Below are positions 4,756 through 36,218 of a DNA stretch of 64,000 bases, piece after piece. Source of the DNA: Candidatus Woesebacteria bacterium (GTDB lineage Bacteria > Patescibacteriota > Microgenomatia > UBA8517); NCBI GenBank assembly GCA_003484955.1, contig DMZH01000003.1:112387-176386 (forward strand). The letters run 5' to 3'. The notes under the pieces were generated by a model. That model was given only the letters and a program-made list of their open reading frames with translations, did not search any database and was not told where the DNA came from. Numbering within the stretch: the stretch's first letter is position 1; each line of letters begins with the position of its first letter. The position numbers and the translations under genes were made by a program.

Positions 4756-5277
4756 TTATACATTAATCATCTTCAAAATAATCTTAAACCAAGGAGTGTG
4801 TTTTTTAGGATCCTTTACCACGTCTTTTTTTAGTTTCCTTATTTCGACCCACTTATAACTTTCAATTTCATCAGGATTTGGTTTAATCGGTCCTTCATGG
4901 CTTCCGCTAAATACATGGTCAAGTTCATGTTCTCCCCAATCCCCACTCTCCATTTTAGCTTTGTAGATGAAGGAGAATACTTCTTTAAGCGGGGTTTTGA
5001 AGCCAAGTTCCTCATAAATCCTTCTTTCAGCTGCTTTTTGGTAGGTTTCTTTTGGATATGGATGTGTGCAAACCGCATTGCTCCAACTTCCACCCCAAGT
5101 TGGTTTTGAGGCAGCCCTTTTGGTTATGAGCATTTTAGTTCTGTCTTTGTCGAATACTACTATTGATATAGCCCTGTGAAGCGGAACCGGAATCTTGTGA
5201 GCAGCAAATTTTTCCTTAAAACCCAAAACATTATCTTTTTCGTCAACCAAAACAATAGGTTTTGCTGTTTTTCTCAT
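4756..5277 (-). CDS. idi: Isopentenyl-diphosphate delta-isomerase, type 1 (Nudix family).
   Basis: HRAISIVVFD...ITKRAASKPTWGGSWSNAVCTHPYPKETYQKAAERRIYEELG is an IDI-1 signature. Size is 173 aa. Confidence 0.8.
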   Translation of the reverse strand: MRKTAKPIVLVDEKDNVLGFKEKFAAHKIPVPLHRAISIVVFDKDRTKMLITKRAASKPTWGGSWSNAVCTHPYPKETYQKAAERRIYEELGFKTPLKEVFSFIYKAKMESGDWGEHELDHVFSGSHEGPIKPNPDEIESYKWVEIRKLKKDVVKDPKKHTPWFKIILKMINV

Positions 5278-17572: not shown

Positions 17573-17573
17573 A

Positions 17574-18629: not shown

Positions 18630-18681
18630 GAATTACTAATATGAGCATTGGTTATTCATTAGATAATTTTAAAATTAGAAA

Positions 18682-22427: not shown

Positions 22428-23165
22428 ATGGCATCCTCAAAAATTTTAGTTTTTTTGACAGCATTACTTTTACCTTTTAGTTTTTACCTTTCACCGCCCG
22501 GTATCCATGCCCAGGCAAAAATCACATCCCCCAATTACATAATCCAGATGCCAAATTTGAACTCAGGTGCCGGAATCCCCTCCTCGGCAGGTTATAAACT
22601 CGATACAACCATTGGTCAAACCGCACCCGGGCTTTACTCATCCACAGGCTACCTGGTTCGGTCCGGTTTCCAATATATCCACTCCATAATTCCCTTTTCT
22701 TTTTCCATGAGTAATTTTTTAATTAATTTTGGCACCCTCATGCCGGGTACCCCAGTAACCCGCACAAGTACTCTTGTGGTTTCTGCGGGAGGGGCTGGTG
22801 GTTACAGGGTTACGGCCAGAGAGGCAGGCTATCTTCAGACATCAACCGGTAAAACTATTCCTGATTCAACCTGTGATGCCGGAACTTGTTCAGAAACGGC
22901 AGCGGGGGTTTGGTCACTCGCGACTACTTACGGATTTGGCTACAACATGTCAGGCAACGATGCCCCTTCGGATTTCATAGACGGAACTTATTTCCGCCAG
23001 TTTGCCAATGCGGCTCTCAGCGAAGGAGATCAGTCGGTCATGTCAAGTGTAAATGTCGGAAGAGATAGAACTGCCACAATTACATATAAAGTAAATGTTT
23101 CGGCGGTTCAGGCGGCAGGAAGTTATCAAAACAGGGTTCTATTTACAGCCATACCATCCTTTTAA
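22428..23165 (+). CDS. Secreted cell-surface protein, a WxL-like C-terminal-domain candidate (CscB-like).
   Basis: Signal peptide. The C-terminal module TCDAGTCSET..GVWSLAT..GFGY...AGSYQNRVLFTAIPSF is shared with ORF 24230..25726. Confidence 0.5.
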   Translation: MASSKILVFLTALLLPFSFYLSPPGIHAQAKITSPNYIIQMPNLNSGAGIPSSAGYKLDTTIGQTAPGLYSSTGYLVRSGFQYIHSIIPFSFSMSNFLINFGTLMPGTPVTRTSTLVVSAGGAGGYRVTAREAGYLQTSTGKTIPDSTCDAGTCSETAAGVWSLATTYGFGYNMSGNDAPSDFIDGTYFRQFANAALSEGDQSVMSSVNVGRDRTATITYKVNVSAVQAAGSYQNRVLFTAIPSF

Positions 23166-23183
23166 ATTTCCAGTCAAATACTA

Positions 23184-24173
23184 ATGAATAAATTATTAAA
23201 ATTCAAAAATAAAAAAATAAAGGGCAGGTTTTTTGTTTTCTTGATTACTCTTATTTCATTGTTCATTATTCATAATTCTGTTGCTGAGGCCCAAACTCTA
23301 GGTCTTTCCATCACTCCCCCGATTGCTGAGGTAATGATTATTCCGGGCAAAATTGTTACTCAAACGTTCACTATTACAAATGACGGCAACGATGGCATGG
23401 CGAGCATTTATATCATACCTTTTAAGGCGCAGGGTGAGTCGGGAAACGTCGCACTTGATGAAAAAAATGCCGTCACTGCAACATCTCCCTATGCCTCATG
23501 GTTTAGTATAATCTCTCCTGTAAGTGTTTTCGGAGAAAAGTTTTACATGGCTGGCGGGCAACGCCAGGAAATAACCGTTAAAATTACTCCCCCGGAATCT
23601 GCCACAGAGAAAGATTATTACTTTACACTATTATACGAACTGGATAACAATATCCCCGGAGGCACTCTCTCCATGGGTCCAACAAACCAAGCTAGAATTG
23701 GTTCCAACCTCATTCTTTCCGTCTCCAGCGACGGCAATCCGCCAAAGACTGCTGAAATTGTCGAATTCAAGGCTCCAAAAATCATCGATTCGCTTGAAAA
23801 ACTTACCTTTAATACAAGAATCGGCAATTTTGGCTCATATGTTTTCAAACCCGATGGTGAAATAACAATTAAACCCACATTCGGCAGTGTAGAAACTCTA
23901 AGTCTTGCCCCTCTTAATATAATTTCCGACTCGGTAAGGAATATTCCCTGCCTGAAAGGTGAAGAAATTATCGTTTGCCAATCCAATCGCAAGGTCTTGG
24001 TCGGAGTTTACAAATCAACCTTGGAGATAACCCCCAACGGAAGCGGTGAAACTCAAAGTAAAACTGTTACCACCGTTGCCTTTCCTTTTTCGATAATATT
24101 TGGGCTTCTTTTAATCTTCATAACCTACAGAATTATCAAAAAATCCCAAAAGGTTGGCAAAGAATCCTCTTGA
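23184..24173 (+). CDS. Cell-surface protein with signal peptide and a C-terminal TM anchor plus basic tail (DUF916/CscA-like).
   Basis: Signal peptide, beta-rich ectodomain (LGLSITPPIAEV...TFTITNDG) and C-terminal TM plus RIIKKSQKVGK. Confidence 0.5.
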   Translation: MNKLLKFKNKKIKGRFFVFLITLISLFIIHNSVAEAQTLGLSITPPIAEVMIIPGKIVTQTFTITNDGNDGMASIYIIPFKAQGESGNVALDEKNAVTATSPYASWFSIISPVSVFGEKFYMAGGQRQEITVKITPPESATEKDYYFTLLYELDNNIPGGTLSMGPTNQARIGSNLILSVSSDGNPPKTAEIVEFKAPKIIDSLEKLTFNTRIGNFGSYVFKPDGEITIKPTFGSVETLSLAPLNIISDSVRNIPCLKGEEIIVCQSNRKVLVGVYKSTLEITPNGSGETQSKTVTTVAFPFSIIFGLLLIFITYRIIKKSQKVGKESS

Positions 24174-24229
24174 CAATGTTTTTTATGGGTTTAATAATGA
24201 TCCTTAGCACATATCTTAACTAAGATAGA

Positions 24230-25726
24230 TTGTTTTGTATGCAAAGCGTAAACACAAAAAAATATCTAGCTACTTTTTCAGTGTTTCTTCTATCGTTATC
24301 ATTCTCCCTGGCGCTTTCTTTTTTCGCCATCAAATCTTTTAATCCAACCAAGATAGAGGCGTCCACTCTCACAAATTCATCGGCTACCTTAAGCAATCCC
24401 CGGCTTTCCTATAGGGCACAAACAACTGCCGGCACGTCAGGAACATCAACGGTCACAATCAACGGCGCCGGAAGTTATCCGGATCTTAATACCAACCACC
24501 TCTTTCCAAGCGACAACGTTTGTTTCTTAAATCAAGGTATAACCGGGTGCATCGGCAGTGTTAACTACACGGTTGCAAACGTATCCAGTGCCACAACTTT
24601 CAGCCTTTCCTCCCCACTCACTGCCAATGTTGATACAAGCGGCTATGTTACGGCGACACAATCGGGAAGCCTGACAATGACTTTCACTTTGGTTAATACA
24701 ATTCCTGTCGGGGGCAACATTTTTGTTACCATACCGGTTGCCAGCACCGGAAATGTCAATGATGGAATTCCGGACACAGGGAGTAGTAATACAACTGACG
24801 GCTTTGATTTTAACAAGCTCGAACCGACAAGTGTCAATGTCAGCTCAACAGGCGGGACCTGCACCGGCGGCTGGGATACTCCGGTAGTTGCCTCCGCAAG
24901 CGGAACAATAACCATTACAAAAGCAACCAGTTCTTGTGCGGGTGCAACCGTTACGGTAATAGTTCCCAACTTGGTCAACCCCACCCCATTTACCACCGGA
25001 CACACACAAGGAGCTGCCGACAATTACAAAATCGCAATAGTTACGAGGGACGGCAGCAACAACACCCTTGATTCTGTAAGTGTGGGGGTGGCTCCCGTTG
25101 AGGGAGTTTTGGTCTCAGCAACAGTTGATCAGACTCTTGCCTTTACAGTTGCCGGGGTTTCTGCAGATTCAGGTTCGTATTGTGGAGTAACCAGAACTGC
25201 TTCGACAACGGATTCAACGGCCACATCTGTTCCTTGGGGAACAATTGCCACCGCCAACAGTTTCCTAAATGCCAACCAGGTATTAACCGTATCAACAAAC
25301 GCCGGCGGTGGCTACACCGTCAAGATTGAAGAAAACGACCAAATGGGCATGAACGGGGTTACCTGTACGGGAGCAACTGCGGGTGAGGCAAACGATTGTA
25401 TCAAGGATACTACTTGCGATTCGGGAACCTGTTCGGAAACAACATCCGGCGAATGGGTTACCGCGACCAATAACGGTTTTGGATATTCGCTTGCAAACGT
25501 GTCAGGAACCGATGCTGGATTCCTCTATAACGAAACCTCAAGGACGTTTTCCTCAAAACAAATTCCGGATCAGGAAGCTTCTGAGGCAAAACAAACCGTG
25601 ATGTCAAACGCGGCCCCGGTTTCCGCTAACCAAGTGTATGCCTGTTATAGAATTTCAGTTTCAGGAACCCAACCTGCTGGTTACTACTACAATAAAGTCA
25701 AATACACGGCAACAGCCACATTCTAA
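24230..25726 (+). CDS. Large Thr/Ser/Gly-rich secreted surface protein with a WxL-like C-terminal domain (CscC-like).
   Basis: Signal peptide and low-complexity T/S/G-rich ectodomain. The C-terminal TCDSGTCSET..GEWVTAT..GFGY...AGYYYNKVKYTATATF is paralogous to the 22428 ORF C-terminus. Confidence 0.5.
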   Translation: MFCMQSVNTKKYLATFSVFLLSLSFSLALSFFAIKSFNPTKIEASTLTNSSATLSNPRLSYRAQTTAGTSGTSTVTINGAGSYPDLNTNHLFPSDNVCFLNQGITGCIGSVNYTVANVSSATTFSLSSPLTANVDTSGYVTATQSGSLTMTFTLVNTIPVGGNIFVTIPVASTGNVNDGIPDTGSSNTTDGFDFNKLEPTSVNVSSTGGTCTGGWDTPVVASASGTITITKATSSCAGATVTVIVPNLVNPTPFTTGHTQGAADNYKIAIVTRDGSNNTLDSVSVGVAPVEGVLVSATVDQTLAFTVAGVSADSGSYCGVTRTASTTDSTATSVPWGTIATANSFLNANQVLTVSTNAGGGYTVKIEENDQMGMNGVTCTGATAGEANDCIKDTTCDSGTCSETTSGEWVTATNNGFGYSLANVSGTDAGFLYNETSRTFSSKQIPDQEASEAKQTVMSNAAPVSANQVYACYRISVSGTQPAGYYYNKVKYTATATF

Positions 25727-25728
25727 CT

Positions 25729-26817
25729 ATGAAAAATCTGCTCACAAAACATACTAAACACAAATTTGTTTATTTGGTTGCCGGCCTAGTAATTTTTATC
25801 GCCTTATTTGTTTCAGATAAAGCATCAGCACAATCAATCATTCCCCTGGTGGTTGCCCCCGCAAGACAAACAATTGAAGTCGATCCAGGCAAGACCACGA
25901 GTTTTGTCGTCAGATTTTACAACACAGGGATAGAACCTATCTCCGGAACGTTTAAGGTGGCTGATTTTATTGTGGACAACAACGAGGGTTCTCCAAACTT
26001 TCTTGAAGGCCCCACTACTCTGTCCAAACGCTTTGCGGCAGCCCAATGGGTGACCCTAAGCACCGAAAAAGGAACAATCCCCTCAAAAGATATGGTTATA
26101 ATTGACGGCAAAATTCGTGTTCCGGCTGACGCAAACCCCGGCGGAAAATATTTCGCGGTATTTTTTGAGCCCACTTCCGAGATTCCTGAAGCCACCGGGT
26201 CAAAACAAGAGGAAGCCGCAAGCGTATCAATGAGAATTGCAGGACTTGTCTATCTGAAAGTGTCGGGCCCTATTGCCGAAGGCGCCAATATCGTAAGCTT
26301 TAGTGCCCCCAACTTCTCCGAATACGGCCCTGTCGCAATCACAACCGAAATCAAAAATAGCGGAGACTATCACATCACTCCTAAGGGGCAAATTGTTGTT
26401 AAGAATATGTTTGGCCGTGAAGTTGCCAGAGAAAGCTTGCAGGAAACCAACATTTTTCCGGATGCCTCAAGGGTAATTGTTTCCAAACTCGGAACAAAAT
26501 GGATGGTTGGTAAGTTCACCGCGTCTCTTGATGCCACCTATGGGGAATCGGGAAAAGTTCTCGCCTCCGCTCTCGGCTTCTGGGTATTTCCCTGGAAGCT
26601 TGCTGTAGTTATAACCTTGGCAATTATCATAATTGTACTTATCATAATCATTATCTTTAACAGATTTGTTAAAAAGGAAAAGAAGCTCGAAGAGGAGCTT
26701 TCCGAGGAGAAAGAAGAACTTGAAAAACTCAAAGAGTCTTTGAAAGATAAGATCAGCGGAATAATTCCGGAGTCCAAAGTTGAAACTCCATCAACTGAAG
26801 AAAAAAAGACTGAATAA
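25729..26817 (+). CDS. Cell-surface protein with signal peptide, C-terminal TM anchor and K/E-rich cytoplasmic tail (DUF916/DUF3324-like).
   Basis: Start is 2 bp after the preceding stop. Ectodomain PLVVAPARQTIEVDPGKTTSFVVRFYNTG. C-terminal TM plus KKEKKLEEELSEEKEELEKLKE. Confidence 0.5.
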   Translation: MKNLLTKHTKHKFVYLVAGLVIFIALFVSDKASAQSIIPLVVAPARQTIEVDPGKTTSFVVRFYNTGIEPISGTFKVADFIVDNNEGSPNFLEGPTTLSKRFAAAQWVTLSTEKGTIPSKDMVIIDGKIRVPADANPGGKYFAVFFEPTSEIPEATGSKQEEAASVSMRIAGLVYLKVSGPIAEGANIVSFSAPNFSEYGPVAITTEIKNSGDYHITPKGQIVVKNMFGREVARESLQETNIFPDASRVIVSKLGTKWMVGKFTASLDATYGESGKVLASALGFWVFPWKLAVVITLAIIIIVLIIIIIFNRFVKKEKKLEEELSEEKEELEKLKESLKDKISGIIPESKVETPSTEEKKTE

Positions 26818-26834
26818 CGTAATATAATTAATCA

Positions 26835-27773
26835 GTGAAACTTAAATTTGCCCTGCTGTTTTCAGTATTATTTCTTTTGCTTGAGACTAGGATCGTACAT
26901 GCTGATGTTCTACCCTCAGAAAAGGTCATTGTGAAACCCAATGTAATCGTTTCTGCGACCATCGGAACCCCAAGGATGACTCTCTGGGGGTATGGCGCTC
27001 CTTCCAGTGTTATAGAGCTTTCAGGTATTGGTGTAGACCAATCTGTAGTCTCCGGAGCAAACGGATACTATTCTTTTGACTTGGTATATTTAAACACTTC
27101 TTTCCCCGAGCTTTGCGTTACGGCAATTGACCAGGGAAAAAGGATAACTCCCCCAACCTGCATTCCCCCGATCGGTCACGGAAATTACTTTTATAACGTC
27201 GGCCCTGTAATACTCCCTCCTACAATAAGCCTGGGAACACCCCAAACCAATGAGAACGGTCAGGTCTCAGCCCAAGGCGAAACAATTCCTAATTCAAATG
27301 TTGAAGTTAAACTGGGCAGACCGGATGCAAAGCCGGGAATTTTTGGTTTTCAGCCGATTAGAAGTGTTCTTGCCTACTATATACCATCGTATAGCGTCCT
27401 TTCGGATGCCGAAGGAAACTTTAGTTTCAATATGCCTACCAATGGAGGCAATTCCTGGAGAGTTTTTGCCATAACCGACTACGAAGGAGGAAATAAATCC
27501 CCAAAAAGTAATACCCTTAAGTTTAAAACCCTTACGCCGGCTGCTTACGCGTGGAGTAATTTTTTGGCATTTCTTGCAACTTTCCTCGTCTGGCCGAGAA
27601 TTATAATCCTGGAGATTTTGGTAATACTAATTTTGATAGGTATCGTCCTGACAATTATCAAAAGGAAAAAGGGAAAAAACAAAAAAATGGAAACTAATAA
27701 AAAGGATCAAAAGTATTCAGAGCTTGTCGAAAGATATCAGGAGTTTCTAAAAAAGACAAAACCTATTCAATAA
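26835..27773 (+). CDS. Membrane-anchored surface protein (signal peptide, Ig-like beta ectodomain, C-terminal TM plus basic tail).
   Basis: Signal MKLKFALLFSVLFLLLETRIVHA. C-terminal TM plus KRKKGKNKK. Confidence 0.45.
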   Translation: MKLKFALLFSVLFLLLETRIVHADVLPSEKVIVKPNVIVSATIGTPRMTLWGYGAPSSVIELSGIGVDQSVVSGANGYYSFDLVYLNTSFPELCVTAIDQGKRITPPTCIPPIGHGNYFYNVGPVILPPTISLGTPQTNENGQVSAQGETIPNSNVEVKLGRPDAKPGIFGFQPIRSVLAYYIPSYSVLSDAEGNFSFNMPTNGGNSWRVFAITDYEGGNKSPKSNTLKFKTLTPAAYAWSNFLAFLATFLVWPRIIILEILVILILIGIVLTIIKRKKGKNKKMETNKKDQKYSELVERYQEFLKKTKPIQ

Positions 27774-28277
27774 TTAGTTGAATGAAACAGTCACCTTTTG
27801 ACTTAATTTTTTGCTACCCACAGATGCCTCAATTGTAAAAAGACCTGCCTCTGTACTTGAAACATCAAAGGTTGCCCTACCGGAATCATCGGTCACCGGG
27901 GAAATCGGATATATCTGCAGGCTTGTATTACCGTTTCCGAGGATAACCTGCTTTCCGGATACCCCCATTCCCTGTCCGTCCAGAATATAAGCAGTAATTC
28001 TAATACGCTCAACCTTTGCTGCCGCCCTCAGAGGCGAAGCGAAAAGGTAGGAATTGTCAAACGATACACTTTGTGGTGTAATGACTTCGGAGTCGGTGGG
28101 CTCAGAAGTGAAATTCTCACTTTGAGCAAAGCTCCCAAAAAACGCAGGCCGGCGGACTAAATAAAGGAAGAGAATAAGGATCAAAACAAAAATAATCAAA
28201 AGAATCAAGGCTATTATGACTGTACGGGAATTTTTGCTACGCTCTTCCATATAGTAATTATATACACCGGATGTCAA
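27774..28277 (-). CDS. N-terminally membrane-anchored protein with a Big/Ig-like domain.
   Basis: N-terminal TM (IIALILLIIFVLILILFLYLV). The C-terminus resembles a bacterial Ig-like fold (GQGMGVSGKQV...FTIEASVG). Confidence 0.4.
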   Translation of the reverse strand: MTSGVYNYYMEERSKNSRTVIIALILLIIFVLILILFLYLVRRPAFFGSFAQSENFTSEPTDSEVITPQSVSFDNSYLFASPLRAAAKVERIRITAYILDGQGMGVSGKQVILGNGNTSLQIYPISPVTDDSGRATFDVSSTEAGLFTIEASVGSKKLSQKVTVSFN

Positions 28278-28719: not shown

Positions 28720-28755
28720 TTGACAGGCCAATCCCCCTTTACAATAATGTATAAT
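28720..28755 (+). promoter_or_regulatory. Promoter-like element upstream of the fibre operon (TTGACA ... TGTATAAT).
   Basis: TTGACA at 28720-28725 and TATAAT at 28750-28755 preceded by TG, about 35 nt before the ATG at 28790. The -35/-10 spacing of 24 nt is non-canonical, so likely only the extended -10 is functional. Confidence 0.3.
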
Positions 28756-28789: not shown

Positions 28790-29308
28790 ATGCAATTAAT
28801 CAGCGATAATACAATAAAAAAATTTCTTAATAATCTTCAGGATCAGGGAAAGTCTTTAGTTTCAATTAAAAATTACAAATCCGATATTAACCACTTTTTA
28901 GCCTGGGCAATACTTAAACTTAAATCTCTCGGATCCTACGCGGATAATGTTATCGAGCTTACTCCATTCATCAACCGGGATTTTTTCAATGAATACAAAA
29001 GCTATATGGTTGAGAACAACATCAAGGTAAAAACAATCAACAGACGCCTGTCTTCACTTAGAAACTTATCCAATTTTCTTTACTCCTCCCAAGCTCTGGA
29101 CAGGGATTACATGCAGGGAATTCAAAATGTCGGCATCGGAACATTGACTCCTATGCGGGTAAAAGATCGGGATATTGTTGAGAGGTTCAGGGAATCTCTT
29201 ATCAAGGACGAAAATGTTTCTTCTAATACAGTCAAGAATTATGTTTCCGATGTAAGAGGCTTTCTAGCCTGGATTGAAAAGAAAGGAGAACTGCCCAATG
29301 GGATTTAG
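28790..29308 (+). CDS. Protein made of 1.5 tandem phage-integrase N-terminal SAM-like (core-binding) domains with no catalytic domain. Probably the frameshifted 5' part of the downstream giant gene.
   Basis: Half-domains 'SLVSIKNYKSDINHFLAWA' + 'KVKTINRRLSSLRNLSNFLY' and 'SSNTVKNYVSDVRGFLAWIEKKG' match the Phage_int_SAM_1 pattern (S.nT...Y..d...Fl.w / s..Tinrrlsalr.f..fl). Confidence 0.6.
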   Translation: MQLISDNTIKKFLNNLQDQGKSLVSIKNYKSDINHFLAWAILKLKSLGSYADNVIELTPFINRDFFNEYKSYMVENNIKVKTINRRLSSLRNLSNFLYSSQALDRDYMQGIQNVGIGTLTPMRVKDRDIVERFRESLIKDENVSSNTVKNYVSDVRGFLAWIEKKGELPNGI

Positions 29309-32300
29309 GAAAGTAGTATCAGACCACATCAAAAAGTATCGAAGTGAAGTATTAAAGGATTCTTCAGCCTCAACTTTCGATAGGAAAATGTTCTCACTCA
29401 AGAAATTCTTTGAATGGACAGTTAAAGAAGGATATCTGGATGAAAATCCGGTGGAATCATTCTTACGGGAAGAGCAGGAAACAGTCAAAACAAAGCTCGG
29501 AAAAATTGAGAGACAAAAAAAGCTAAATCCTCCATCCTACGGCTCAGCTCAATCTAGAATTGTCGCAAAATTTGCGGGAAAACCCAAGCTTCAGAAGCTT
29601 GCCTACAATCTTTTTTATGCCAGACCTAAATGGTATAAATCATATCACAATCTACCAATTGCCAGTTATTTCAACTATGCAATTCTTGTTCTTTTGATGT
29701 CCAGCCTTGGTTTTGGAGTATATAATCAATTCTTCAAAACCACCTCCGGTTCCCTTGCCTACCCAACCTCCCTAACCCGTGCCGGAAGGTATTTATCTTT
29801 TCAGGGAAGATTAACCAACAATCTAGGGAATCCCATCACAACTGCAACCAACCTGGTTTTCAAACTCTACAGCGTTGATACGGGTGGGGCGGCCCTTTGG
29901 AACTCCGGAACTTGTTCGATTACACCCGACACCGACGGAATCTTCTCTACTCTTTTAGGAAGCTCCTGCGGAACTGAAATTGCATCATCTGTATTTAGCG
30001 AAAACTCTGCCATTTGGCTTGGAGTGACTGTGGGAGTAGACGCCGAGGCTACTCCAAGAGTGCAAATCGCAACAGTTGCCTATGCTATTAATTCCGAAAC
30101 ACTTCAGGGTTATCCGGCCAGTTCCTCCGCAACAGCCAATACGGTTCCCGTGATGAATAACCTGGGACAAATTGTCTTGGCAGCCGCTTCCCCCAAAATG
30201 CAGTCTACAAGCGGCACTTTTGCTATTGAGGGACAGGCACTAACCATCACGACACCGGATGCTTCCAACGGATCAATCGCTATCAATCCGGATGGAACCG
30301 GCACACTTAATCTTATTTTCGAAGGAGCCGCCCCGGGAGGGGGCGCTGGAGGTTTTGTCAATGCAACCAATGCCAATATAACATCGGGAGCTCTTTATTT
30401 CGGACAGGTTGCCAGTAATGCCACAGGGTATAATCTTTTGCAACTTAAAAGCGGTGCAACCCCAACAGATAAATTTGTAGTTGACTCAGGAGGAAACGTA
30501 ACCGCGGCAGGAACATTTAACGGATTAACGGTTTCCAGCGGAACAATTTCAAGCGGTACCTGGAACGGAACCGCCATTTCAACGACATACGGCGGAACAG
30601 GACAAAATTGGTCGGGAGTGGCTCAAGGATCTCTTCCCTATTTCTCAGCAACAGGAACAATGTCTACCCTCTCTCCCGGAACTTCAGGCTACGTTCTTAC
30701 AACCCAAGGAGCTTCAGCCGATCCAACCTGGACAAGTGCTTCCTCAGTTGGAACAAATTACTGGAATCTTGGAACAGGAACAATATACCCGGGTAACACC
30801 ACGCTTGATTTACTTTTGGGTGCCAGTGCCACAACCAGTGCCAAGTTTGCATTCAAAAATGTTTTAACAGGAACTCCAACGGCCAGTATCTCCGGTTCCA
30901 CCGCTAATGTAGCGACATTCATTGACGGGAATGGCAATATTTCAACAACCAACAGAGCTGATTTAGTGCTTGGCAACTCCGCTACCTACAACTCAACAGG
31001 AAATATTCTTCTTAATCCAAACGGGATTGGATATGTTGGAATTGGGACAACAACACCCTTATATCCTTTAAGCATAGTCGGAACAGCCCCCAATGTTGCT
31101 ACGGGGCGTGTAGTTGATATCGATGGTACTTTATCTTCTACAACGAATGACCAAATTGGTTTAAAAGTATCTCCAAGTGTTTTACCAACTGCTTCAACCA
31201 GCAGGACCTACTCCGGTTTACAACTGTCGCTTTCCGGAAACAGCACAACCAGGCTTACCAATGCTGAATTTCGAGGCATTGAAGGATATGTCAGTTTCAG
31301 CGGAGCATCAGGTTCTTTGGGTACAGGAATTGGTATAAGATCTAGGGTTAATAATACCTCTACAGGTACAATTACTAACGCATATTCTACATATATTGCC
31401 ACCCCAACAAATACGGGAACAATAACCAATACTTATGGTTTATATGTTGATACCCAAACCGTAGGAACTCAAACAAATGCGCCTTTTGCAATATATCAAG
31501 CAGGAACAACAAACAAAAACTACTTTGCAGGCAATGTTGGTATCGGTACCACCTCCCCCACTGTCGAACTTGATGTAGCAGGAGCTGCTTCAATATCAGG
31601 ATCTTTAACTTTCAGAACGGGTGCAGGATCAATCCAAACTACAGCCTTTAATCCACTAACAGTTGGGGGGTCAACTACAGGAAATATCACACTTAATCCA
31701 AGTAACGCCGTATCGGATGGGTATGTGGCACCTGCAGCAAATGGCGTAACCAATCTTGGTACAGCTTCTCTACTTTGGAAAGATGTATACGCATCAGTTC
31801 TTCATCAAGGAGCAAATCTAGTTTGTGATTCAAGCGGTGCCAACTGTCCGGCAGGAGCAGTTTCTTATTGGGGACAGGCTGCGGGAGCCATATATACACT
31901 CAATAATACCGCCGATGTACTCATCGGAGCCACCGCAACGACTTCTGCAAAGTTTGCATTTAAGAATGTGTTAACAGGTACCCCAACCGCTTCAATATCC
32001 GGTTCAACCGCTAATGTTGCTTTGTTTATGGACGGTAATGGCAACATTTCTACAACAAACAGACAAAATTTAGTACTTGGAAATTCAACAACATATGACA
32101 CAACAGGAAACATTCTCCTAAACTCCAATGGAACCGGAAATGTTGGTATCGGCACCACTTCCCCCACCGCACTTTTAGATGTTGCAGGGGCTGCTTCCGT
32201 ATCGGGATCGCTCACATTTAGAACTGGGGCAGGTTCGATCCAAACAACAACATTCTCCCCGATTGCAATCGGCGGTTCAACAACAGGAAATATCACACTT

Positions 32301-35300
32301 AATCCAAGCAATGCGATAGCAGGGGGTTATGTCGCCCCCAATACAACCAATATGTCAGATTTTGGAACCGCTTCCCTACTTTGGAGAAATATATATGGAA
32401 CAACCCTATACCAAGGAGCTAACCAGGTTTGTGATACAAGCGGTAACTGTTCGGCAGCTACTGATATCTGGAGTATTGCCGATGGAGCACTTTATCCGAA
32501 AAATACTTCCGTAGATCTATTACTTGGATCAACCGCAACCACAAGTGCTAAATTTGCACTTAAAAATGTTTTATCTGGTGTTCCTACCGCCTCAATTTCA
32601 GGAAGCACGACAAATGTAGCCACATTCATTGACGGAAATGGCAACATTTCTACAACCAATAGAGCTAACTTGGTGCTTGGAAACTCCGCAACTTACAACA
32701 CAACAGGCAACGTTTTGATTAATCCAAACGGAACCGGAAGAGTCGGTGTAGGAACAACCACACCCAACTCTGCACTTGAAATATATAGTGCTGCTGGTGG
32801 AATTAATGATTATATAGGCCTTAAAAGAGGTGGTACAGATTGGAGAATCTGGGTAAGTGATGGAACCACAGGAACAGCATCGTTAAGAATAGGTGGAAAT
32901 GCGGTGGATAGTTATGCCTGGCAATTTGATTGGACCGGAGCAGCCGCAAATCTTTTTAAGTCTCCCAATGGTGAGGCGGGCCAAATCCCATTGGCTGTAA
33001 GGGCTGCCGGTGCTCAAACAGCAAATATATTTGAAGCCCAAAACTCTGGCGGCACTGCTCTGTTTTCTGTGGGTAGTACCGGAAATATCACAGCAGCCGG
33101 TGTAATTAATGCAGGTGGACTTAGTGGCGTTGCATACAATGCCCTTGCCGGAGGTGGCGATACTCCCGCTGCCACGGCTGCTATCACCACTTCAAACGAT
33201 TTATTTATAGGCGGAGATGCTGAAATTAAAGGCGGACTCTATTTAACCGGCAAAAATATTTTTAATGTTGTCAGCGGAGTTGCAACATCGACAATTTCTC
33301 TGGCCCAAAATCCGGCTACTATAAACAATTACAATGCTTTAAGTTACGGAAGCTGGCTTGTAAACAATAGTACAAATAACGGTATAGCAGCTCTCATGGT
33401 AAACCAAAGCAAAGGTGGAGATATTTTTACTGCCAGTGCTTCAGGATCACCAAAATTTGTAATTGATAACTCCGGTAATGTTGGAATAGGTACAACAGGG
33501 CCAAGAAATGGGCTGGAACTAGCCAAGCTTGACAGCAACTACATAACGAGTTTAAGGGTTGGAGGGATTTTGCAAGGAACTACAGCTGTTGCTATTGGAG
33601 CTGAGACATCCAGACATCAAATTCTATTCTCAAGCTGGAGAGATGTTCAAACGAATACTGTTGGCGCTAAAATAGCAGCTATAAATTGGAATAATTATGC
33701 ATTAAATAATCCTTTAGTTCAAAATACTGATTTGGCATTCTTTACCCTTGGAACTACTCCGGGATCAACTGACGCTACTACTGAAAAAATGCGCATTACT
33801 GCAGCGGGCAACGTCGGTATTGGTACAACTAGTCCAGTATCTAAATTAGATGTGATAGGTGCTCAAAATAACACAATAACTTCTACTAATTCCATCGTTA
33901 AGTTTTTAGGTGATGACGCGGGCATTCATATTGGTAATTTAGCTGGAACTCCAAGTTATGGTGCTTGGTTACAGGCGATGAGAGCCGATAATTTTGCATT
34001 CCCATTATTATTAAACCCACTTGGCGGCAACGTCGGCATCGGGACAACGAGCCCGAGTTACCGGCTCACTTTGGGAGGTACCAGCACTGTGTTTGGGATA
34101 GAAAATGCAACTGCATTCGCAGCCAAAAATTCTGTTGGAGGCTACGAAAATTACCTCTGGCCTCGCTGGTCTGACAATGTTACATATCTAAATTTTGGGT
34201 CAGCTGGATTTAATATCCGAAACAACGGATCTTCGTCAGTGATGGTTATGCAGAATACCGGCAATGTTGGAATTGGGACGACAAGTCCGGATACAAAACT
34301 TGAAATCAACGGATATGCAGATACTTTAAGCGCATTGACTCTTGATGTTGCCCATGGTACATATTTCGTTGAACTTGATCGAAATGGAACCAAAGTTGCA
34401 GATATTTATAAGAATACAAGCGGACCGCTTATTTTTGAGTCTTTTGCGGCTGGGAGTACAACGGCAGAGTTTTCGTTTTCTGGCGGCAAAGTGAATGTCA
34501 CCGGAACAACTACTTACTCAATAACCGGACCTTTTTCGGGAGCCACTGCCAATGCTGCTTGGACAACCGGTTTTGCAACCCAAAATATAAGCACCAGTAT
34601 CCTTGCCAGTGGGGCTTTAGTAGCCAATGGTGTTTTCTCTGCGTCAGACCAACGACTAAAAGAAAATATTGATCAGATCAATCCGGAGATGGTGAATGAC
34701 TTCATGCAAAACATCATTCCTGTTGGCTTTAACTGGAAAAGGGATGGTCTTTACAATACAGGTTTTGTCGCTCAGGATCTTATTCGTAAAGGTTTTGGTT
34801 ATTTAGTAAAAGCCACACCGGATGACAGCATCAGTCAAAGCATTGATGAGGATGGTTTTATAAGTCCGGCAGGGTTCCAATATAACGTTGACTATCAAGC
34901 AGTTGTTCCTATTTTAACCTACGCTTTACAGCAGCAACAAGCTCAAATTGCCTCTCATTCTTCCCAACTGGCTAATCTAGCTCTTACTTCCGATGGAGAT
35001 TTATTGATAGAAGAATCAACTAATGACGGATATTTGGTCCAAAAGACAGATGGAAGTGTTATTTCACAAATTGCTGCTTTAGCCGAAATGGTTATTGCCA
35101 ACATCAAAGCAGGAGCAATTGTCACGGAAGATCTGGCTACCAGTTCCTTTACTGCTTTCCAGGGAACGGTTGATAATATGCTTGTAAAGTCCGGGCTTGT
35201 CTCACCAATTGTCCAAACTGCCCTCATCTCTCCTCTTCCCGGTGACACTGATGTAACTGTCCAAATCGGATCGGTAGCTACCCCTTCCGGACAATTTGCT

Positions 35301-36218
35301 ATTCAAAATACGGAGGGTGTGGATGTTGCAACTATTGATAACCAAGGAAATGCCACTTTCTCCGGCACTCTTTTTGCCGAGGATATCAAGTCTAAATCTC
35401 TTGATGAGATACAGGCTCTTTTGACCCAAGTTCAGGTAGACCAAAATTTACTATCTCAAAGCGCCGGCTGGAATGTAAACACTGCTACAGATTCGGCCTC
35501 ATTAATTGCCGTGGCTAACATCGCTGACCTTTATGTCACGAACCAGGCTGCTATTAACTCCCTATCCGTCACCAATTCTTTAACAATCGGAGCTGATATG
35601 GTTATTCAATCGGCAATCGGTGGTGATCAATTGGTAATGAATAGTATTGATTCACTAACTGCCCCATTAAGAATTCAGAGTCTTGCCATGGCCCCTGTTG
35701 AAATAATGGCCGGCCTTATCAGAATAGATACTGAGGGAAATGTTCAAATCTCGGGTAATCTTGCGGTCGCGGGGAGAATCAAATCTTCCGGACTGACATT
35801 ACAAGAAGAGAACCTGCAAGGTATGGCCCAAAACACAGTCTTTAATGTACAGGACGCTTTGGGTAGTGCGGTAGCAACAATCGACGCCTCCGGTTCCGCC
35901 AGCTTTGGATCGATTTCAACACCCCAACTTGTCATCGCCGGAGCCGATGCAACAGAGTCAGGTACTATTATAGATGGCGTGATTACAACCAATTCTACAA
36001 TCGGGCAGGCGGTTATTCCCGCTGGGGTCTCCGAAATTACGATAAAAAATCCAAAAGTTACCGATTACACTCTTGTATACGTTACCCCAACTTCAACAAC
36101 TGAAAATTATGTACTATATGTAAAGAGCAAAAAAGCGGGAGAATTTGTAGTCGGATTCACAAACCCGATTTCAATTGACGTTAACTTTAACTGGTGGATA
36201 GTGCGTGTGACCCAATAA
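29274..36218 (+). CDS. Giant (2314 aa) single-pass membrane-anchored fibre protein: a tail-fibre-like repetitive ectodomain with an internal peptidase-S74-type intramolecular chaperone domain.
   Basis: The N-terminus completes the second SAM-like domain (SASTFDRKMFSLKKFFEWTVKEGYLDENP). TM helix at about aa 125-150. Three near-identical ~140-aa repeats (..TTSAKFAFKNVLTGTPTASISGSTANVATFIDGNGNISTTNR..). Eight or more GNVGIGTTSP..L.V.G motifs. SDQRLKENI...GFVAQDL at aa 1791 onward, then about 420 further aa. Confidence 0.8.
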   Translation: MKRKENCPMGFRKVVSDHIKKYRSEVLKDSSASTFDRKMFSLKKFFEWTVKEGYLDENPVESFLREEQETVKTKLGKIERQKKLNPPSYGSAQSRIVAKFAGKPKLQKLAYNLFYARPKWYKSYHNLPIASYFNYAILVLLMSSLGFGVYNQFFKTTSGSLAYPTSLTRAGRYLSFQGRLTNNLGNPITTATNLVFKLYSVDTGGAALWNSGTCSITPDTDGIFSTLLGSSCGTEIASSVFSENSAIWLGVTVGVDAEATPRVQIATVAYAINSETLQGYPASSSATANTVPVMNNLGQIVLAAASPKMQSTSGTFAIEGQALTITTPDASNGSIAINPDGTGTLNLIFEGAAPGGGAGGFVNATNANITSGALYFGQVASNATGYNLLQLKSGATPTDKFVVDSGGNVTAAGTFNGLTVSSGTISSGTWNGTAISTTYGGTGQNWSGVAQGSLPYFSATGTMSTLSPGTSGYVLTTQGASADPTWTSASSVGTNYWNLGTGTIYPGNTTLDLLLGASATTSAKFAFKNVLTGTPTASISGSTANVATFIDGNGNISTTNRADLVLGNSATYNSTGNILLNPNGIGYVGIGTTTPLYPLSIVGTAPNVATGRVVDIDGTLSSTTNDQIGLKVSPSVLPTASTSRTYSGLQLSLSGNSTTRLTNAEFRGIEGYVSFSGASGSLGTGIGIRSRVNNTSTGTITNAYSTYIATPTNTGTITNTYGLYVDTQTVGTQTNAPFAIYQAGTTNKNYFAGNVGIGTTSPTVELDVAGAASISGSLTFRTGAGSIQTTAFNPLTVGGSTTGNITLNPSNAVSDGYVAPAANGVTNLGTASLLWKDVYASVLHQGANLVCDSSGANCPAGAVSYWGQAAGAIYTLNNTADVLIGATATTSAKFAFKNVLTGTPTASISGSTANVALFMDGNGNISTTNRQNLVLGNSTTYDTTGNILLNSNGTGNVGIGTTSPTALLDVAGAASVSGSLTFRTGAGSIQTTTFSPIAIGGSTTGNITLNPSNAIAGGYVAPNTTNMSDFGTASLLWRNIYGTTLYQGANQVCDTSGNCSAATDIWSIADGALYPKNTSVDLLLGSTATTSAKFALKNVLSGVPTASISGSTTNVATFIDGNGNISTTNRANLVLGNSATYNTTGNVLINPNGTGRVGVGTTTPNSALEIYSAAGGINDYIGLKRGGTDWRIWVSDGTTGTASLRIGGNAVDSYAWQFDWTGAAANLFKSPNGEAGQIPLAVRAAGAQTANIFEAQNSGGTALFSVGSTGNITAAGVINAGGLSGVAYNALAGGGDTPAATAAITTSNDLFIGGDAEIKGGLYLTGKNIFNVVSGVATSTISLAQNPATINNYNALSYGSWLVNNSTNNGIAALMVNQSKGGDIFTASASGSPKFVIDNSGNVGIGTTGPRNGLELAKLDSNYITSLRVGGILQGTTAVAIGAETSRHQILFSSWRDVQTNTVGAKIAAINWNNYALNNPLVQNTDLAFFTLGTTPGSTDATTEKMRITAAGNVGIGTTSPVSKLDVIGAQNNTITSTNSIVKFLGDDAGIHIGNLAGTPSYGAWLQAMRADNFAFPLLLNPLGGNVGIGTTSPSYRLTLGGTSTVFGIENATAFAAKNSVGGYENYLWPRWSDNVTYLNFGSAGFNIRNNGSSSVMVMQNTGNVGIGTTSPDTKLEINGYADTLSALTLDVAHGTYFVELDRNGTKVADIYKNTSGPLIFESFAAGSTTAEFSFSGGKVNVTGTTTYSITGPFSGATANAAWTTGFATQNISTSILASGALVANGVFSASDQRLKENIDQINPEMVNDFMQNIIPVGFNWKRDGLYNTGFVAQDLIRKGFGYLVKATPDDSISQSIDEDGFISPAGFQYNVDYQAVVPILTYALQQQQAQIASHSSQLANLALTSDGDLLIEESTNDGYLVQKTDGSVISQIAALAEMVIANIKAGAIVTEDLATSSFTAFQGTVDNMLVKSGLVSPIVQTALISPLPGDTDVTVQIGSVATPSGQFAIQNTEGVDVATIDNQGNATFSGTLFAEDIKSKSLDEIQALLTQVQVDQNLLSQSAGWNVNTATDSASLIAVANIADLYVTNQAAINSLSVTNSLTIGADMVIQSAIGGDQLVMNSIDSLTAPLRIQSLAMAPVEIMAGLIRIDTEGNVQISGNLAVAGRIKSSGLTLQEENLQGMAQNTVFNVQDALGSAVATIDASGSASFGSISTPQLVIAGADATESGTIIDGVITTNSTIGQAVIPAGVSEITIKNPKVTDYTLVYVTPTSTTENYVLYVKSKKAGEFVVGFTNPISIDVNFNWWIVRVTQ

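What the first reader, a model, noticed from the sequence alone, without database searches (positions are those of the whole stretch)
28790..29330. Tandem integrase-N-terminal SAM-like (core-binding) domains, lacking any catalytic domain, joined to the giant fibre by a +1 frame change
ORF 28790..29308 and the first about 65 aa of ORF 29274..36218 together form two complete Phage_int_SAM_1-like domains (half-motifs S.NT.KNY.SD...FLAW / ..T.NRRLSSLRN.SNFL). The second domain is split exactly at the frame change. FLAWIEKKG ends in frame 2 at about 29287, and HIKKYRSEVLKDSSASTFDRKMFSLKKFFEWTVKEGYLDENP continues in frame 0 from about 29322. The intervening sequence gaaaagaaaggagaactgcc is A-rich. 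This indicates either a 1-nt indel error, a recent pseudogenising mutation, or programmed +1 frameshifting. If read through, the giant fibre has a cytoplasmic DNA-binding-type N-terminus ahead of its TM helix, which is an undescribed architecture. No tyrosine-recombinase catalytic domain exists anywhere in the window.
Basis: seen in the sequence. Interest (0 to 1): 0.75.

Follow-up and report, generated by a model that had tools for sequence, protein, structure and literature searches.

The report
Integrase-like domain split between two genes
A small DNA-binding-type domain borrowed from integrases sits on the cytoplasmic end of a giant membrane-anchored surface fibre of an uncultured Microgenomates bacterium, and here it is divided between two overlapping, separately translated genes; this is a conserved gene split, not a sequencing error or a programmed frameshift.

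Summary
ORF1 (28790..29308, 172 aa) holds one complete integrase N-terminal SAM-like (core-binding) domain plus the first two helices of a second. The giant ORF supplies the last two helices. The interpretation offered (indel error, fresh pseudogene or programmed +1 frameshift) is not supported.

- The giant has its own ATG at 29298, 9 nt after an AAGGAG, and overlaps the ORF1 stop by 11 nt.
- The junction is identical in 10 independent assemblies, and its geometry is kept in 48 protein clusters.
- In 86 related loci, 34 are split in the same loop. These include junctions with a 0-226 nt spacer or with a whole inserted gene (23S_rRNA_IVP, NYN, PDDEXK_3), where frameshifting is impossible. Another 33 loci carry both domains in one ORF, and 13 carry one domain.
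- Both halves are under purifying selection.

Most likely the two products are made by coupled translation and the half-domains reassemble. That would hang ORF1 on the cytoplasmic tail of a tail-fibre-like giant (TM helix at aa 121-142, Peptidase_S74 domain). Reassembly and DNA binding are inferred, not shown.

The family is large (at least 534 clusters at 50% identity). I found no description of it in the searchable literature.

The parts
28720..28748 (+). Sigma-70-like promoter (TTGACA-17-AATAAT) upstream of ORF1; probable operon promoter
   Evidence: Best match in the region, 11 of 12 positions. The same block is visible upstream of ORF1 in L001 and L002. No promoter-like or terminator-like site lies on the + strand between ORF1's last 270 nt and the giant's start.
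28790..29308 (+). ORF1, 172 aa, cytoplasmic: one complete core-binding-like domain plus the first half of a second
   Evidence: It is 100% identical to P0014, which is seen on 41 contigs. 87 of 93 related clusters have the same 'full domain + N-half' make-up, with a median length of 172 aa.
28814..29086 (+). SAM-like (core-binding-like) domain 1, complete (ORF1 aa 9-99)
   Evidence: Pfam PF02899 profile positions 1-81 of 83. The AF2 model has four helices at 6-18, 23-46, 63-75 and 80-99.
29168..29287 (+). N-terminal half (helices A and B) of SAM-like domain 2, encoded at the end of ORF1 (aa 127-166)
   Evidence: Own HMM positions 3-41, 44.1 bits. AF2 helices at 127-139 and 145-165. dN/dS 0.09-0.24 against four relatives.
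29282..29288 (+). Shine-Dalgarno-like AAAGGAG for the giant gene, lying inside ORF1's coding sequence
   Evidence: It ends 9 nt before the ATG at 29298. AAAGGA is kept in L001, L002, L006 and L007.
29298..29308 (+). 11-nt overlap ATGGGATTTAG: the giant's start codon through ORF1's stop codon
   Evidence: Identical in 10 independent assemblies. The geometry is invariant in 48 clusters. Source gene callers start the giant here, giving 2306 aa.
29298..36218 (+). Giant gene, 2306 aa: type II membrane protein with a tail-fibre-like extracellular part
29307..29471 (+). C-terminal half (helices C and D) of SAM-like domain 2, at the giant's N-terminus (aa 4-58)
   Evidence: Pfam profile positions 43-83. 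Own HMM positions 45-98, 48.7 bits. dN/dS 0.05-0.14. It aligns with the second half of the membrane-proximal domain of the continuous homologues.
29658..29723 (+). Single TM helix (giant aa 121-142), preceded by a K/R-rich segment, so the N-terminus is cytoplasmic
   Evidence: Sequence and charge distribution. The region is conserved across the family.
33747..34121 (+). Region similar to phage tail fibre proteins (giant aa 1484-1608)
   Evidence: phrog_9942 E=1.2e-14 and phrog_18345 E=5.7e-11.
34644..34784 (+). Peptidase_S74 intramolecular chaperone domain (giant aa 1783-1829; SDQRLKENI motif)
   Evidence: PF13884, 26.7 bits against a cut-off of 22.
27774..28277 (-). Divergently transcribed TM + Big_1 protein; a conserved neighbour of the ORF1-giant pair
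   Evidence: Pfam Big_1. The same neighbour is present in L001, L003, L005, L086-L099.

Best explanation
This is a fixed gene fission inside a small four-helix domain. In an uncultured Microgenomates (OP11) bacterium, the cytoplasmic N-terminal module of a giant membrane-anchored, tail-fibre-like surface protein consists of two tyrosine-recombinase core-binding-like (SAM-like) domains with no catalytic domain. In this lineage the module is encoded by two genes that break in the loop between helices B and C of the membrane-proximal domain. ORF1 and the giant are co-transcribed from a promoter upstream of ORF1. They are translated separately. The giant starts at its own ATG (29298), 9 nt after an AAGGAG, and that ATG lies 8 nt before ORF1's stop, an arrangement that favours coupled, roughly equimolar synthesis. 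The two half-domains then most likely reassemble non-covalently. This would attach ORF1, with its complete first domain, to the fibre's cytoplasmic tail and recreate the two-domain module that relatives make as one chain. By homology and basic charge, the module most likely binds DNA or another nucleic acid at the inner face of the membrane. Shown: the anatomy, the separate start, the conservation, the existence of fused and split relatives, and selection on both halves. Inferred: translational coupling, reassembly, and DNA binding.
For: Anatomy and domain completion on joining.

Own start signal: AAGGAG, 9 nt, then ATG. The mRNA downstream is unstructured (z=+1.83), as is usual at start sites. 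Public gene calls start the giant at this ATG.

Not an error: 10 assemblies from at least 9 samples have the identical junction, and strain variants differ elsewhere in the 4.5 kb.

Conserved: L001, L002, L006 and L007 (62-83% identity) have the same 11-nt overlap. In all 48 clusters whose ORF1 ends in LPN, the next residue is G, E or A. All three have codons that start with G, so AATG is preserved, and exactly one more residue precedes the stop.

Split without any possible frameshift: in 34 of 86 loci the break lies in the same loop, with overlaps of 4-16 nt, spacers of 0-226 nt in all relative frames, or 0.5-1 kb holding an inserted gene.

Fused relatives exist: 33 of 86 loci have both domains in one ORF, including L008 at 75% identity and P0002. 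The same three classes appear among cluster representatives.

Selection: pN is 0.08-0.20 against a saturated pS of 0.5-0.8 in both halves.

Fold: AF2 on the concatenated chain gives two four-helix units, the second built from both gene products (pLDDT about 63-87). The top Foldseek PDB hits are all recombinase N-terminal/core-binding domains: 3nrw (TM 0.71), XerD, XerA, lambda Int CB and IntI.

Topology and fibre nature. Basic pI of 9.2-9.7 for both domains.
Against: No experiment or expression data were available, so start-site usage, coupling and reassembly are all inferred.

- The AF2 model was made from a single sequence joined artificially (mean pLDDT 73), and the Foldseek E-values are weak (0.15-1).
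- The strict invariance of the 11-nt overlap across 48 clusters is more than simple coupling requires, and the giant's frame is open for at least 30 nt upstream of the ATG in all five close relatives. A minor frameshifted fusion product therefore cannot be excluded.
- Four loci (L038, L044, L049, L076) have a giant that starts with the C-half and no ORF1 within 4 kb, so the C-half may not always need a partner.
- DNA binding rests only on homology and charge. A core-binding domain without its catalytic partner could equally be a protein-interaction module.
Confidence: 0.8

Rival explanations
1. Programmed +1 ribosomal frameshifting near the ORF1 stop produces a fused ORF1-giant protein, either alone or alongside the separate products.
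For: The +1 offset would restore a complete domain. The overlap geometry is strictly conserved in 48 clusters. The giant's frame is open at least 30 nt upstream of the ATG in five relatives. NNT-TAR precedes the stop in most of them: ATT TAG, CTT TAG, ATT TAA.
Against: - The candidate slip codon is not conserved for re-pairing: ATT, CTT and GGT before the stop, and CCC versus CCT at the Pro codon.
- The SD-like element lies 14 nt from the stop-proximal codon, not about 3 nt as in prfB, and sits at the ideal distance for initiation at the ATG.
- There is no downstream structure.
- The AATG start is preserved in 48 of 48 clusters, which a frameshift site would not need.
- The same split works in other clades with spacers, with same-frame stop-ATG junctions, or with an inserted gene, where frameshifting cannot join the halves.
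Confidence: 0.06
2. The two genes are separate and both functional, but the half-domains do not reassemble. ORF1 acts on its own, for example as a small DNA-binding protein, and the halves are tolerated remnants or have acquired other roles.
For: Four giants with a C-half have no adjacent ORF1. 13 of 86 relatives manage with a single domain. No interaction data exist.
Against: - ORF1 and the giant stay adjacent and co-oriented in 34 of 34 split loci, even when a foreign gene is inserted between them.
- Both halves are as constrained as the complete domain 1: dN/dS 0.05-0.24 against about 0.08.
- Two isolated helices of a four-helix bundle are unlikely to be stable alone (inference).
- Fused and split forms alternate among close relatives, for example L008 against the window clade.
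Confidence: 0.12
3. Sequencing or assembly indel error, or a recent inactivating mutation (pseudogene).
For: A single +1 offset inside a domain is the classic signature of either.
Against: The junction is identical in 10 independent assemblies and the protein is listed in 65 index blocks. The same arrangement occurs in relatives at 57-83% identity. There is purifying selection on both sides. A start codon and SD are present.
Confidence: 0.02

Closest known systems
N-terminal core-binding (SAM-like) domain of tyrosine recombinases (XerC/XerD, XerA, lambda Int, IntI; Pfam PF02899/PF13495/PF13102)
   Same: Same sequence family and four-helix fold. Pfam scores are above the gathering cut-off, NCBIfam XerD/XerC models match their first 100 or so positions, and the top structural hits are 3nrw, 1a0p, 4a8e, 2oxo and 2a3v. 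In recombinases this domain clamps the DNA major groove opposite the catalytic domain (established knowledge).
   Different: There is no catalytic domain here or anywhere in the scanned window. The domain is duplicated in tandem, sits ahead of a TM helix on a 2306-aa extracellular fibre, and one copy is divided between two polypeptides. Public databases nevertheless name these proteins 'site-specific integrase' or 'recombinase XerD'.
Genes in pieces: Aeromonas phage Aeh1 nrdA split by the mobE endonuclease gene, with the two products reassembling (PMC3045599); 'fractured genes' with a free-standing endonuclease between the halves (PMC2677866)
   Same: A conserved gene is broken into two separately translated ORFs that stay adjacent. 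In 10 related loci a small selfish-type gene (23S_rRNA_IVP, NYN, PDDEXK_3) sits exactly in the break. Function presumably depends on non-covalent reassembly.
   Different: This case is cellular, not phage. The break is inside a small domain of about 90 aa rather than a large enzyme. No split intein is possible, because the tails are only 3-6 aa. Endonuclease activity or homing was not tested for the inserted genes. In the window itself nothing is inserted and the genes overlap.
Translationally coupled overlapping genes (start codon of the downstream gene inside the end of the upstream gene)
   Same: The ATG lies 8 nt before the upstream stop, the SD is inside the upstream coding sequence, and there is no intervening promoter or terminator.
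   Different: The two genes encode parts of one protein domain. The overlap is 11 nt rather than the commoner 1 or 4 nt. Coupling itself was not measured.
prfB-type programmed +1 frameshifting
   Same: There is a +1 offset, a stop codon in the zero frame at the junction, and an SD-like element upstream.
   Different: The SD spacing is wrong (14 nt rather than about 3), the re-pairing codon is not conserved, an independent ATG is present, and orthologues are split by spacers.
ToxR/CadC-type bitopic regulators (cytoplasmic N-terminal DNA-binding domain, one TM helix, extracytoplasmic domain)
   Same: Same topology: a DNA-binding-type domain at the cytoplasmic N-terminus, a single TM helix, and a large outside part.
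   Different: The domain families are unrelated (winged HTH versus recombinase core-binding fold). The outside part here is a fibre of more than 2100 aa, not a sensor domain. No regulatory role has been shown. The resemblance is an analogy only.

Membership tests
Phage_int_SAM_1 / core-binding domain family (PF02899) | Sequence match above Pfam's gathering score | tested here: met
   ORF1 scores 58.7 bits against a cut-off of 22.3. The joined sequence scores 74.8 bits with two full copies. The giant's N-terminus alone scores 15.4 bits and fails, as expected for half a domain.
Phage_int_SAM_1 / core-binding domain family (PF02899) | Four-helix core-binding fold | tested here: met
   The AF2 model has two four-helix units. 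The best PDB matches are recombinase N-terminal domains (3nrw TM 0.71, 2oxo TM 0.68), though the Foldseek E-values are only 0.15-1.3.
Phage_int_SAM_1 / core-binding domain family (PF02899) | Binds core-type DNA sites | not testable with these tools
   Only indirect support: pI 9.2-9.7 and conserved K/R-rich motifs such as KTINRRLSSLR.
Tyrosine recombinase / integrase (the database name for these proteins) | C-terminal catalytic domain (PF00589) with the R-H-R-Y active site | tested here: not met
   There is no PF00589 hit in ORF1, in the giant, or in any other scanned window ORF of 90 aa or more. NCBIfam Xer models match only their N-terminal 100 or so positions, at 47 bits against cut-offs of 279-335. 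It should not be filed as an integrase.
Programmed +1 frameshift site (prfB-like) | P-site codon that can re-pair in the +1 frame, conserved in orthologues | tested here: not met
   The codons before the stop are ATT, ATT, ATT, CTT and GGT. The Pro codon is CCC in four relatives and CCT in one.
Programmed +1 frameshift site (prfB-like) | SD-like stimulator about 3 nt upstream of the shift codon, or a stimulatory downstream structure | tested here: not met
   GGAG ends 14 nt before the last sense codon. The downstream 121 nt are less structured than shuffled sequences, z=+1.83.
Programmed +1 frameshift site (prfB-like) | No independent initiation signal for the downstream frame; orthologues keep the two frames contiguous | tested here: not met
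   ATG and SD are present and conserved. Orthologues have spacers of up to 1 kb or an inserted gene.
Translationally coupled overlapping gene pair | Downstream start codon with an RBS within or next to the upstream gene's end, on the same strand, with no terminator or promoter between | tested here: met
Translationally coupled overlapping gene pair | Downstream translation depends on upstream translation | not testable with these tools
   This needs reporter assays.
Split gene whose products reassemble (genes in pieces) | Continuous orthologues exist and the break falls inside one domain | tested here: met
   33 of 86 loci are continuous, and the break lies in the helix B-C loop.
Split gene whose products reassemble (genes in pieces) | Both fragments maintained by selection and kept together | tested here: met
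   dN/dS 0.05-0.24. ORF1 is adjacent in 34 of 34 split loci. However, 4 giants that start with the C-half have no nearby ORF1.
Split gene whose products reassemble (genes in pieces) | Physical reassembly of the fragments | not testable with these tools
   Only a single-chain AF2 model of the concatenated sequences is available.
Split intein / protein trans-splicing | Intein halves (about 100 aa and about 35 aa) at the break | tested here: not met
   ORF1 ends a median of 6 aa after the half-domain, and the giant's half-domain starts at aa 4.
Peptidase_S74-bearing tail-fibre-like proteins (the giant) | Intramolecular chaperone domain above the Pfam cut-off, plus similarity to tail fibres | tested here: met
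   PF13884 scores 26.7 bits against a cut-off of 22. phrog_9942 E=1.2e-14. Trimerisation and autocleavage were not tested.

The most novel reading that the evidence does not exclude
The split, two-chain core-binding module is a cytoplasmic nucleic-acid clamp attached to a giant tail-fibre-like surface filament. It would physically couple DNA at the inner membrane face with cell-surface contact in these episymbiotic, nucleotide-scavenging bacteria, for example in contact-dependent DNA handling or ToxR-like signalling. The break in the domain may persist because the loop is a landing site for small IVS-type selfish genes and hairpin elements. That would make it a cellular 'gene in pieces' whose hairpin spacers keep termination and re-initiation coupled.
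Probability: 0.12. Interest if true: 0.8.

Novelty: new variant of a known kind. Interest (0 to 1): 0.5.

Why it matters
The practical point is a recurrent mis-annotation. Hundreds of Microgenomates proteins named 'site-specific integrase' or 'XerD' are not recombinases. They are the cytoplasmic ends, or detached pieces of the cytoplasmic ends, of giant surface fibres. They should not be used as markers of mobile elements.

For protein evolution, this is a well-populated natural example of a break inside a four-helix domain that has been kept for a long time. Fused, split-overlapping, split-spaced and split-with-insert versions occur side by side in related genomes. This makes fragment complementation and the routes between fusion and fission directly testable.

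For CPR biology, it defines a large uncharacterised family: at least 534 clusters at 50% identity with E of 1e-30 or better, and 356 species-level genomes. In this family a recombinase DNA-binding module has been recruited to a cell-envelope fibre, which hints at a link between the cell surface and nucleic acids.

Tried and rejected
- **Sequencing error.** Rejected: the junction is identical in 10 independent assemblies.
- **Pseudogene.** Rejected: dN/dS is low and the arrangement is conserved in 48 clusters.
- **prfB-like +1 frameshift, Pro-codon slip, AAA-G slip.** The slip codon, the spacing and a stimulatory structure are all missing or not conserved. I keep this only as a 6% rival.
- **Transcriptional slippage.** The A-runs are only 3-4 nt long.
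- **Translational bypassing** across the 72-nt element in L096/L099. The take-off and landing codons would not restore the giant's frame (reasoning from the sequence).
- **Split intein.** The tails are too short.
- **Intron or a known RNA** in the spacers of relatives. No Rfam family matched, and the window holds only three tRNAs.
- **Spacer element as a dispersed repeat.** A covariance model of the Shapirobacteria-type spacer element found only its 8 seed copies in 661 kb and nothing in the window.
- **PDB search.** A single-sequence search gave one weak hit to a recombinase-like chain.
- **Literature.** Six full-text searches found no description of this architecture or family. One search supplied the split-gene analogues cited here. 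One search failed on a term-length error.
- **Other.** A first Pfam call failed on the residue limit. The MAFFT/RNAalifold run on untrimmed spacers missed the outer stem, which was recovered after trimming.
Full report
**1. What is in the window**

ORF1 (28790..29308, 172 aa) and a giant ORF lie on the + strand in frames 2 and 0.
- Pfam finds a complete Phage_int_SAM_1 domain in ORF1 (aa 9-99) and the start of a second copy.
- The first 200 aa of the giant match only the second half of the profile (positions 43-83, E=0.023).
- When the two translations are joined, a complete second copy appears (profile 1-83 of 83) and the score rises from 58.7 to 74.8 bits.
- NCBIfam's XerD and XerC models match only their N-terminal 100 or so positions.

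The claim that the window has no tyrosine-recombinase catalytic domain also holds: no PF00589 hit appeared in any scanned ORF of 90 aa or more. LeuRS and the second giant were not scanned.

It holds AAAGGAG (29282-29288) and, 9 nt later, an ATG (29298) in the giant's frame. That ATG lies 8 nt before ORF1's TAG, so the two genes overlap by 11 nt (ATGGGATTTAG).

**2. Not an artefact and not recent**

ORF1 is 100% identical to a protein seen on 41 contigs and listed in 65 index blocks; NCBI names it ACD_13C00031G0004, 'uncultured bacterium'.
- Ten independent assemblies from JGI, ENA and Logan carry an 81-nt junction identical to the window. Some of them differ elsewhere in the 4.5 kb by 9 to 315 positions.
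- The source gene callers start the giant at the same ATG, giving 2306 aa.
- Relatives at 62-83% identity (L001, L002, L006, L007) have the same 11-nt overlap, with a conserved block GAAAGGA-N3-CTGCC(C/T)AATG.
- Of 93 ORF1-like clusters, 87 have the same 'full domain + N-half' make-up and end a median of 6 aa after the half-domain.
- In 48 clusters the tail is LPN-x-x-stop. The residue after N is always G, E or A, whose codons start with G, so AATG is preserved. Exactly one more residue follows.
- Against four relatives, synonymous sites are saturated (pS 0.5-0.8) while pN is 0.14-0.20 in the ORF1 half and 0.08-0.13 in the giant's half (dN/dS 0.05-0.24).

**3. The same split elsewhere, in forms that exclude frameshifting**

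A scan of species-representative genomes found 356 loci encoding relatives of the giant's N-terminal region, and the best 80 were fetched. They are Microgenomates: Woesebacteria, Shapirobacteria, Collierbacteria, Roizmanbacteria and Pacebacteria.

An HMM of the domain built here was run over stop-to-stop translations. It sorts 86 loci as follows:

| Class | Loci |
|---|---|
| Split in the same helix B-C loop | 34 |
| Both domains in one ORF | 33 |
| One domain in one ORF | 13 |
| Other | 6 |

The 34 split junctions are very diverse:
- overlaps of 4, 11 or 16 nt;
- a stop immediately followed by an in-frame ATG (L013, L026);
- spacers of 3-18 nt;
- spacers of 74-226 nt;
- gaps of 0.5-1 kb.

An ATG stands at the start of the C-half in 32 of the 34; the other two (L043, L078) have a GTG. 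The long gaps hold whole genes of the 23S_rRNA_IVP, NYN or PDDEXK_3 families. Frameshifting cannot join the halves at junctions with spacers or inserted genes. The split form therefore functions as two polypeptides.

Continuous proteins such as P0002 cover 100% of the joined window sequence at 39% identity. L008, at 75% identity, is continuous as well.

An exhaustive search of 1.84 billion cluster representatives found 534 proteins with E of 1e-30 or better and 2393 with E of 1e-10 or better. Lengths reach 6346 aa, and the same three architectures occur in similar proportions.

**4. How this particular junction arose (inference)**

In the sister Woesebacteria-type clade the giant starts M-x-x-L-P-N-I-T-P-D-L-I-R-K-Y. 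In the window, LPN is the tail of ORF1 (…KKGELPNGI*) and the giant reads MGFRK-VVSDHIKKY. The window junction equals the sister's continuous CTG CCC AAT | GTA… with 13 nt (GGGATTTAGGAAA) inserted. That insertion shifts the frame and supplies both the TAG and, together with AAT, the ATG.

L008, which is continuous, branches at the base of or inside the window subclade in two neighbour-joining trees. These trees are rough and have no support values. The loop has evidently been broken, re-joined or remodelled more than once.

Within the window subclade, three lineages (P0053, P0060, P0063) carry a 65-72-nt element in place of the direct overlap. It has a 12-bp outer stem and CCAAT direct repeats, and lies between CTGCCCAAT and the giant's ATG.

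**5. Tests of the frameshift idea in the window itself**

- The codon before the stop is ATT, ATT, ATT, CTT or GGT in the five relatives.
- The Pro codon is CCC, or CCT in one relative.
- The SD-like element is 14 nt from the last sense codon, not the 3 nt or so of prfB.
- It sits at the usual distance for initiation at the ATG.
- The 121 nt downstream are less structured than shuffled sequences (z=+1.83).
- No promoter-like or terminator-like site separates the genes. The best promoter match lies upstream of ORF1 at 28720-28748.

I therefore read the pair as one operon with coupled but separate translation. A low-level frameshifted product cannot be formally excluded.

**6. What the proteins are**

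An AF2 model of the concatenated chains (single sequence, mean pLDDT 73) has two four-helix units. The second is built from helices 127-139 and 145-165 of ORF1 and helices 171-193 and 196-215 of the giant. Its best PDB matches are all N-terminal/core-binding domains of tyrosine recombinases: 3nrw, XerD 1a0p, XerA 4a8e, lambda Int 2oxo and IntI 2a3v. The E-values are weak, 0.15-1.3. Both domains are basic, with pI 9.2-9.7.

The giant has a K/R-rich segment, then one TM helix (aa 121-142), then about 2160 extracellular residues. These begin with a highly conserved domain that contains an invariant LSFQGRLT motif. They also include a stretch similar to phage tail fibres (phrog_9942, E=1.2e-14) and a Peptidase_S74 intramolecular chaperone domain at aa 1783-1829.

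The giant is thus a type II membrane protein with a cytoplasmic N-terminus and a tail-fibre-like exterior. The surrounding genes encode other envelope proteins.

**7. Most likely mechanism**

*Shown:* two genes, a separate start, a conserved split, fused relatives, and selection on both halves.

*Inferred:*
- Translation of the giant is coupled to termination of ORF1.
- The two half-domains complement each other and form the membrane-proximal four-helix domain.
- ORF1's complete domain is thereby held on the fibre's cytoplasmic tail, reproducing the two-domain module of the fused relatives.
- The module binds nucleic acid at the membrane.

The main functional rival is that the halves do not reassemble. 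Four giants that start with a C-half have no ORF1 within 4 kb.

**8. Comparison with what is known**

- The domains belong to the core-binding/SAM-like family. The proteins are not tyrosine recombinases, because the defining catalytic domain is absent. Database names such as 'site-specific integrase' or 'XerD' are misleading.
- The closest mechanistic analogues are phage 'genes in pieces', such as Aeh1 nrdA split by mobE with reassembly of the products (PMC3045599), and 'fractured genes' (PMC2677866).
- Six full-text searches found no description of a core-binding domain joined to a TM helix and a giant fibre, or of this split. The library is incomplete, so this is absence of evidence only.

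**9. Verdict**

The flagged frame change is an ordinary overlapping gene boundary in mechanistic terms, and the frameshift and error readings fail. What lies behind it is less ordinary. It is a large undescribed family in which recombinase core-binding domains have been recruited to the cytoplasmic end of giant surface fibres. In about a third of members one domain is divided between two genes, at a loop that repeatedly hosts small selfish genes and hairpin elements.

I rate it a new variant of known kinds (domain-splitting gene fission; exapted recombinase domain), with interest 0.5.

Noticed in passing
window 52915-54738 (-) and 44775-52913 (-): A 607-aa protein with an N-terminal HTH_17 (excisionase/MerR-type) DNA-binding domain, several TM helices and a dCache_1 sensor lies immediately upstream of a second giant ORF (2712 aa). 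This is a second case in the window of a mobile-element-type DNA-binding domain on a membrane protein next to a giant surface protein.
   Followed up: no
L004 1569-1633, L042 3907-3981, L043 3881-3958, L028 3740-3831, L048 920-998, L039 3341-3411, L036 3283-3343, L023 2063-2136: In Shapirobacteria-like relatives a 60-90-nt element follows the ORF1 stop. It has a 9-10-bp G+C outer stem enclosing a conserved GGGGGGA motif, then a T-rich stretch and ATTATA(T)AAC. Six of 10 stem pairs change on both sides, and 87% of cells are paired against 29-41% in slid controls. There is no Rfam match. A covariance model found no further copies in 661 kb. Where a gene is inserted, it lies after this element.
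   Followed up: partly
L096 4012-4088, L099 1948-2024, L101 about 975-1075: Three lineages inside the window's own subclade carry a 65-72-nt element with a 12-bp outer stem (CGCGTTAGAAAA/TTTTCTAACGCG; two compensatory pairs among three sequences). In L096 and L101 it is flanked by CCAAT direct repeats; L099 has CCAAT on the left flank only. It is inserted exactly at the window-type junction. ORF1 then ends ...AAQSR*, with its stop inside the 5' arm, and the giant's ATG lies 5 nt after the 3' arm. A mini-ORF starting MLPN[RH]VRKN is conserved over its first 16 or so codons. The stem would bring the ORF1 stop and the giant's start together, which could be hairpin-bridged coupling, or the element could be a MITE-like insertion.
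   Followed up: partly
L003 3743-4189; L029, L034, L039, L047, L050; L023, L032, L036: Small genes of families typical of rRNA intervening sequences sit exactly between ORF1 and the giant in 9 loci: 23S_rRNA_IVP above Pfam's cut-off only in L050, sub-threshold in L029 and L039, and assigned by sequence resemblance alone in L034 and L047; NYN in 3 loci; PDDEXK_3 in 1. A tenth long gap (L072) has no recognisable gene. I did not test whether this junction is hit more often than other intergenic regions.
   Followed up: partly
L087, L092, L093, L094 (strain variants of the window locus): The giant's length differs between strains of the same organism: 2306, 2299 and 3113 aa. This suggests repeat expansion or contraction in the fibre.
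   Followed up: no
window 34644-36218: The Peptidase_S74 chaperone domain is not at the C-terminus, and about 480 residues follow it. In phage fibres this domain is normally terminal and is cleaved off (own knowledge), so processing here may release or expose a large C-terminal piece.
   Followed up: no
window 22428-27773 (+): Five consecutive genes encode proteins with N-terminal signal or anchor sequences, and some have C-terminal TM anchors. None has a Pfam hit at E of 1e-5 or better. They lie just upstream of the Big_1 gene and the ORF1-giant pair, and the whole region looks like a cell-surface gene cluster.
   Followed up: no
window 4756-8027 (-) and 16694-19323 (-): The first block holds mevalonate-pathway genes: a NUDIX protein that may be IDI (Pfam NUDIX only), diphosphomevalonate decarboxylase and two GHMP kinases. 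The second holds competence-related genes: a protein with the Pfam Competence domain (ComEC-type), a ComEA-like protein (HHH_3, SLBB), and an unannotated ORF I suspect is the ComEC metallo-beta-lactamase part (no Pfam hit). The presence of DNA-uptake genes bears on the speculative DNA-handling role of the fibre module.
   Followed up: no
L001 2484-2550; L052 704-1437: In one metagenome contig the orthologous giant is cut after 284 aa. In a Collierbacteria genome the first domain and most of the second lie in different frames at a different position (HMM positions 20-97). These could be assembly errors or further, different breaks.
   Followed up: no
L038, L044, L049, L076: These giants begin with only the C-terminal half-domain, and no ORF1-like gene lies on either strand within the 2.6-4 kb of upstream sequence held for each locus. 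The partner may be encoded elsewhere or may have been lost.
   Followed up: partly
record titles: Many of the related contigs are deposited as 'uncultured Gammaproteobacteria/Pseudomonadales', 'Bathyarchaeia', 'Spirochaetia' or 'Melioribacter' MAGs, although the locus is otherwise confined to Microgenomates. These are probably placeholder or wrong taxonomic labels, or bin contamination.
   Followed up: no
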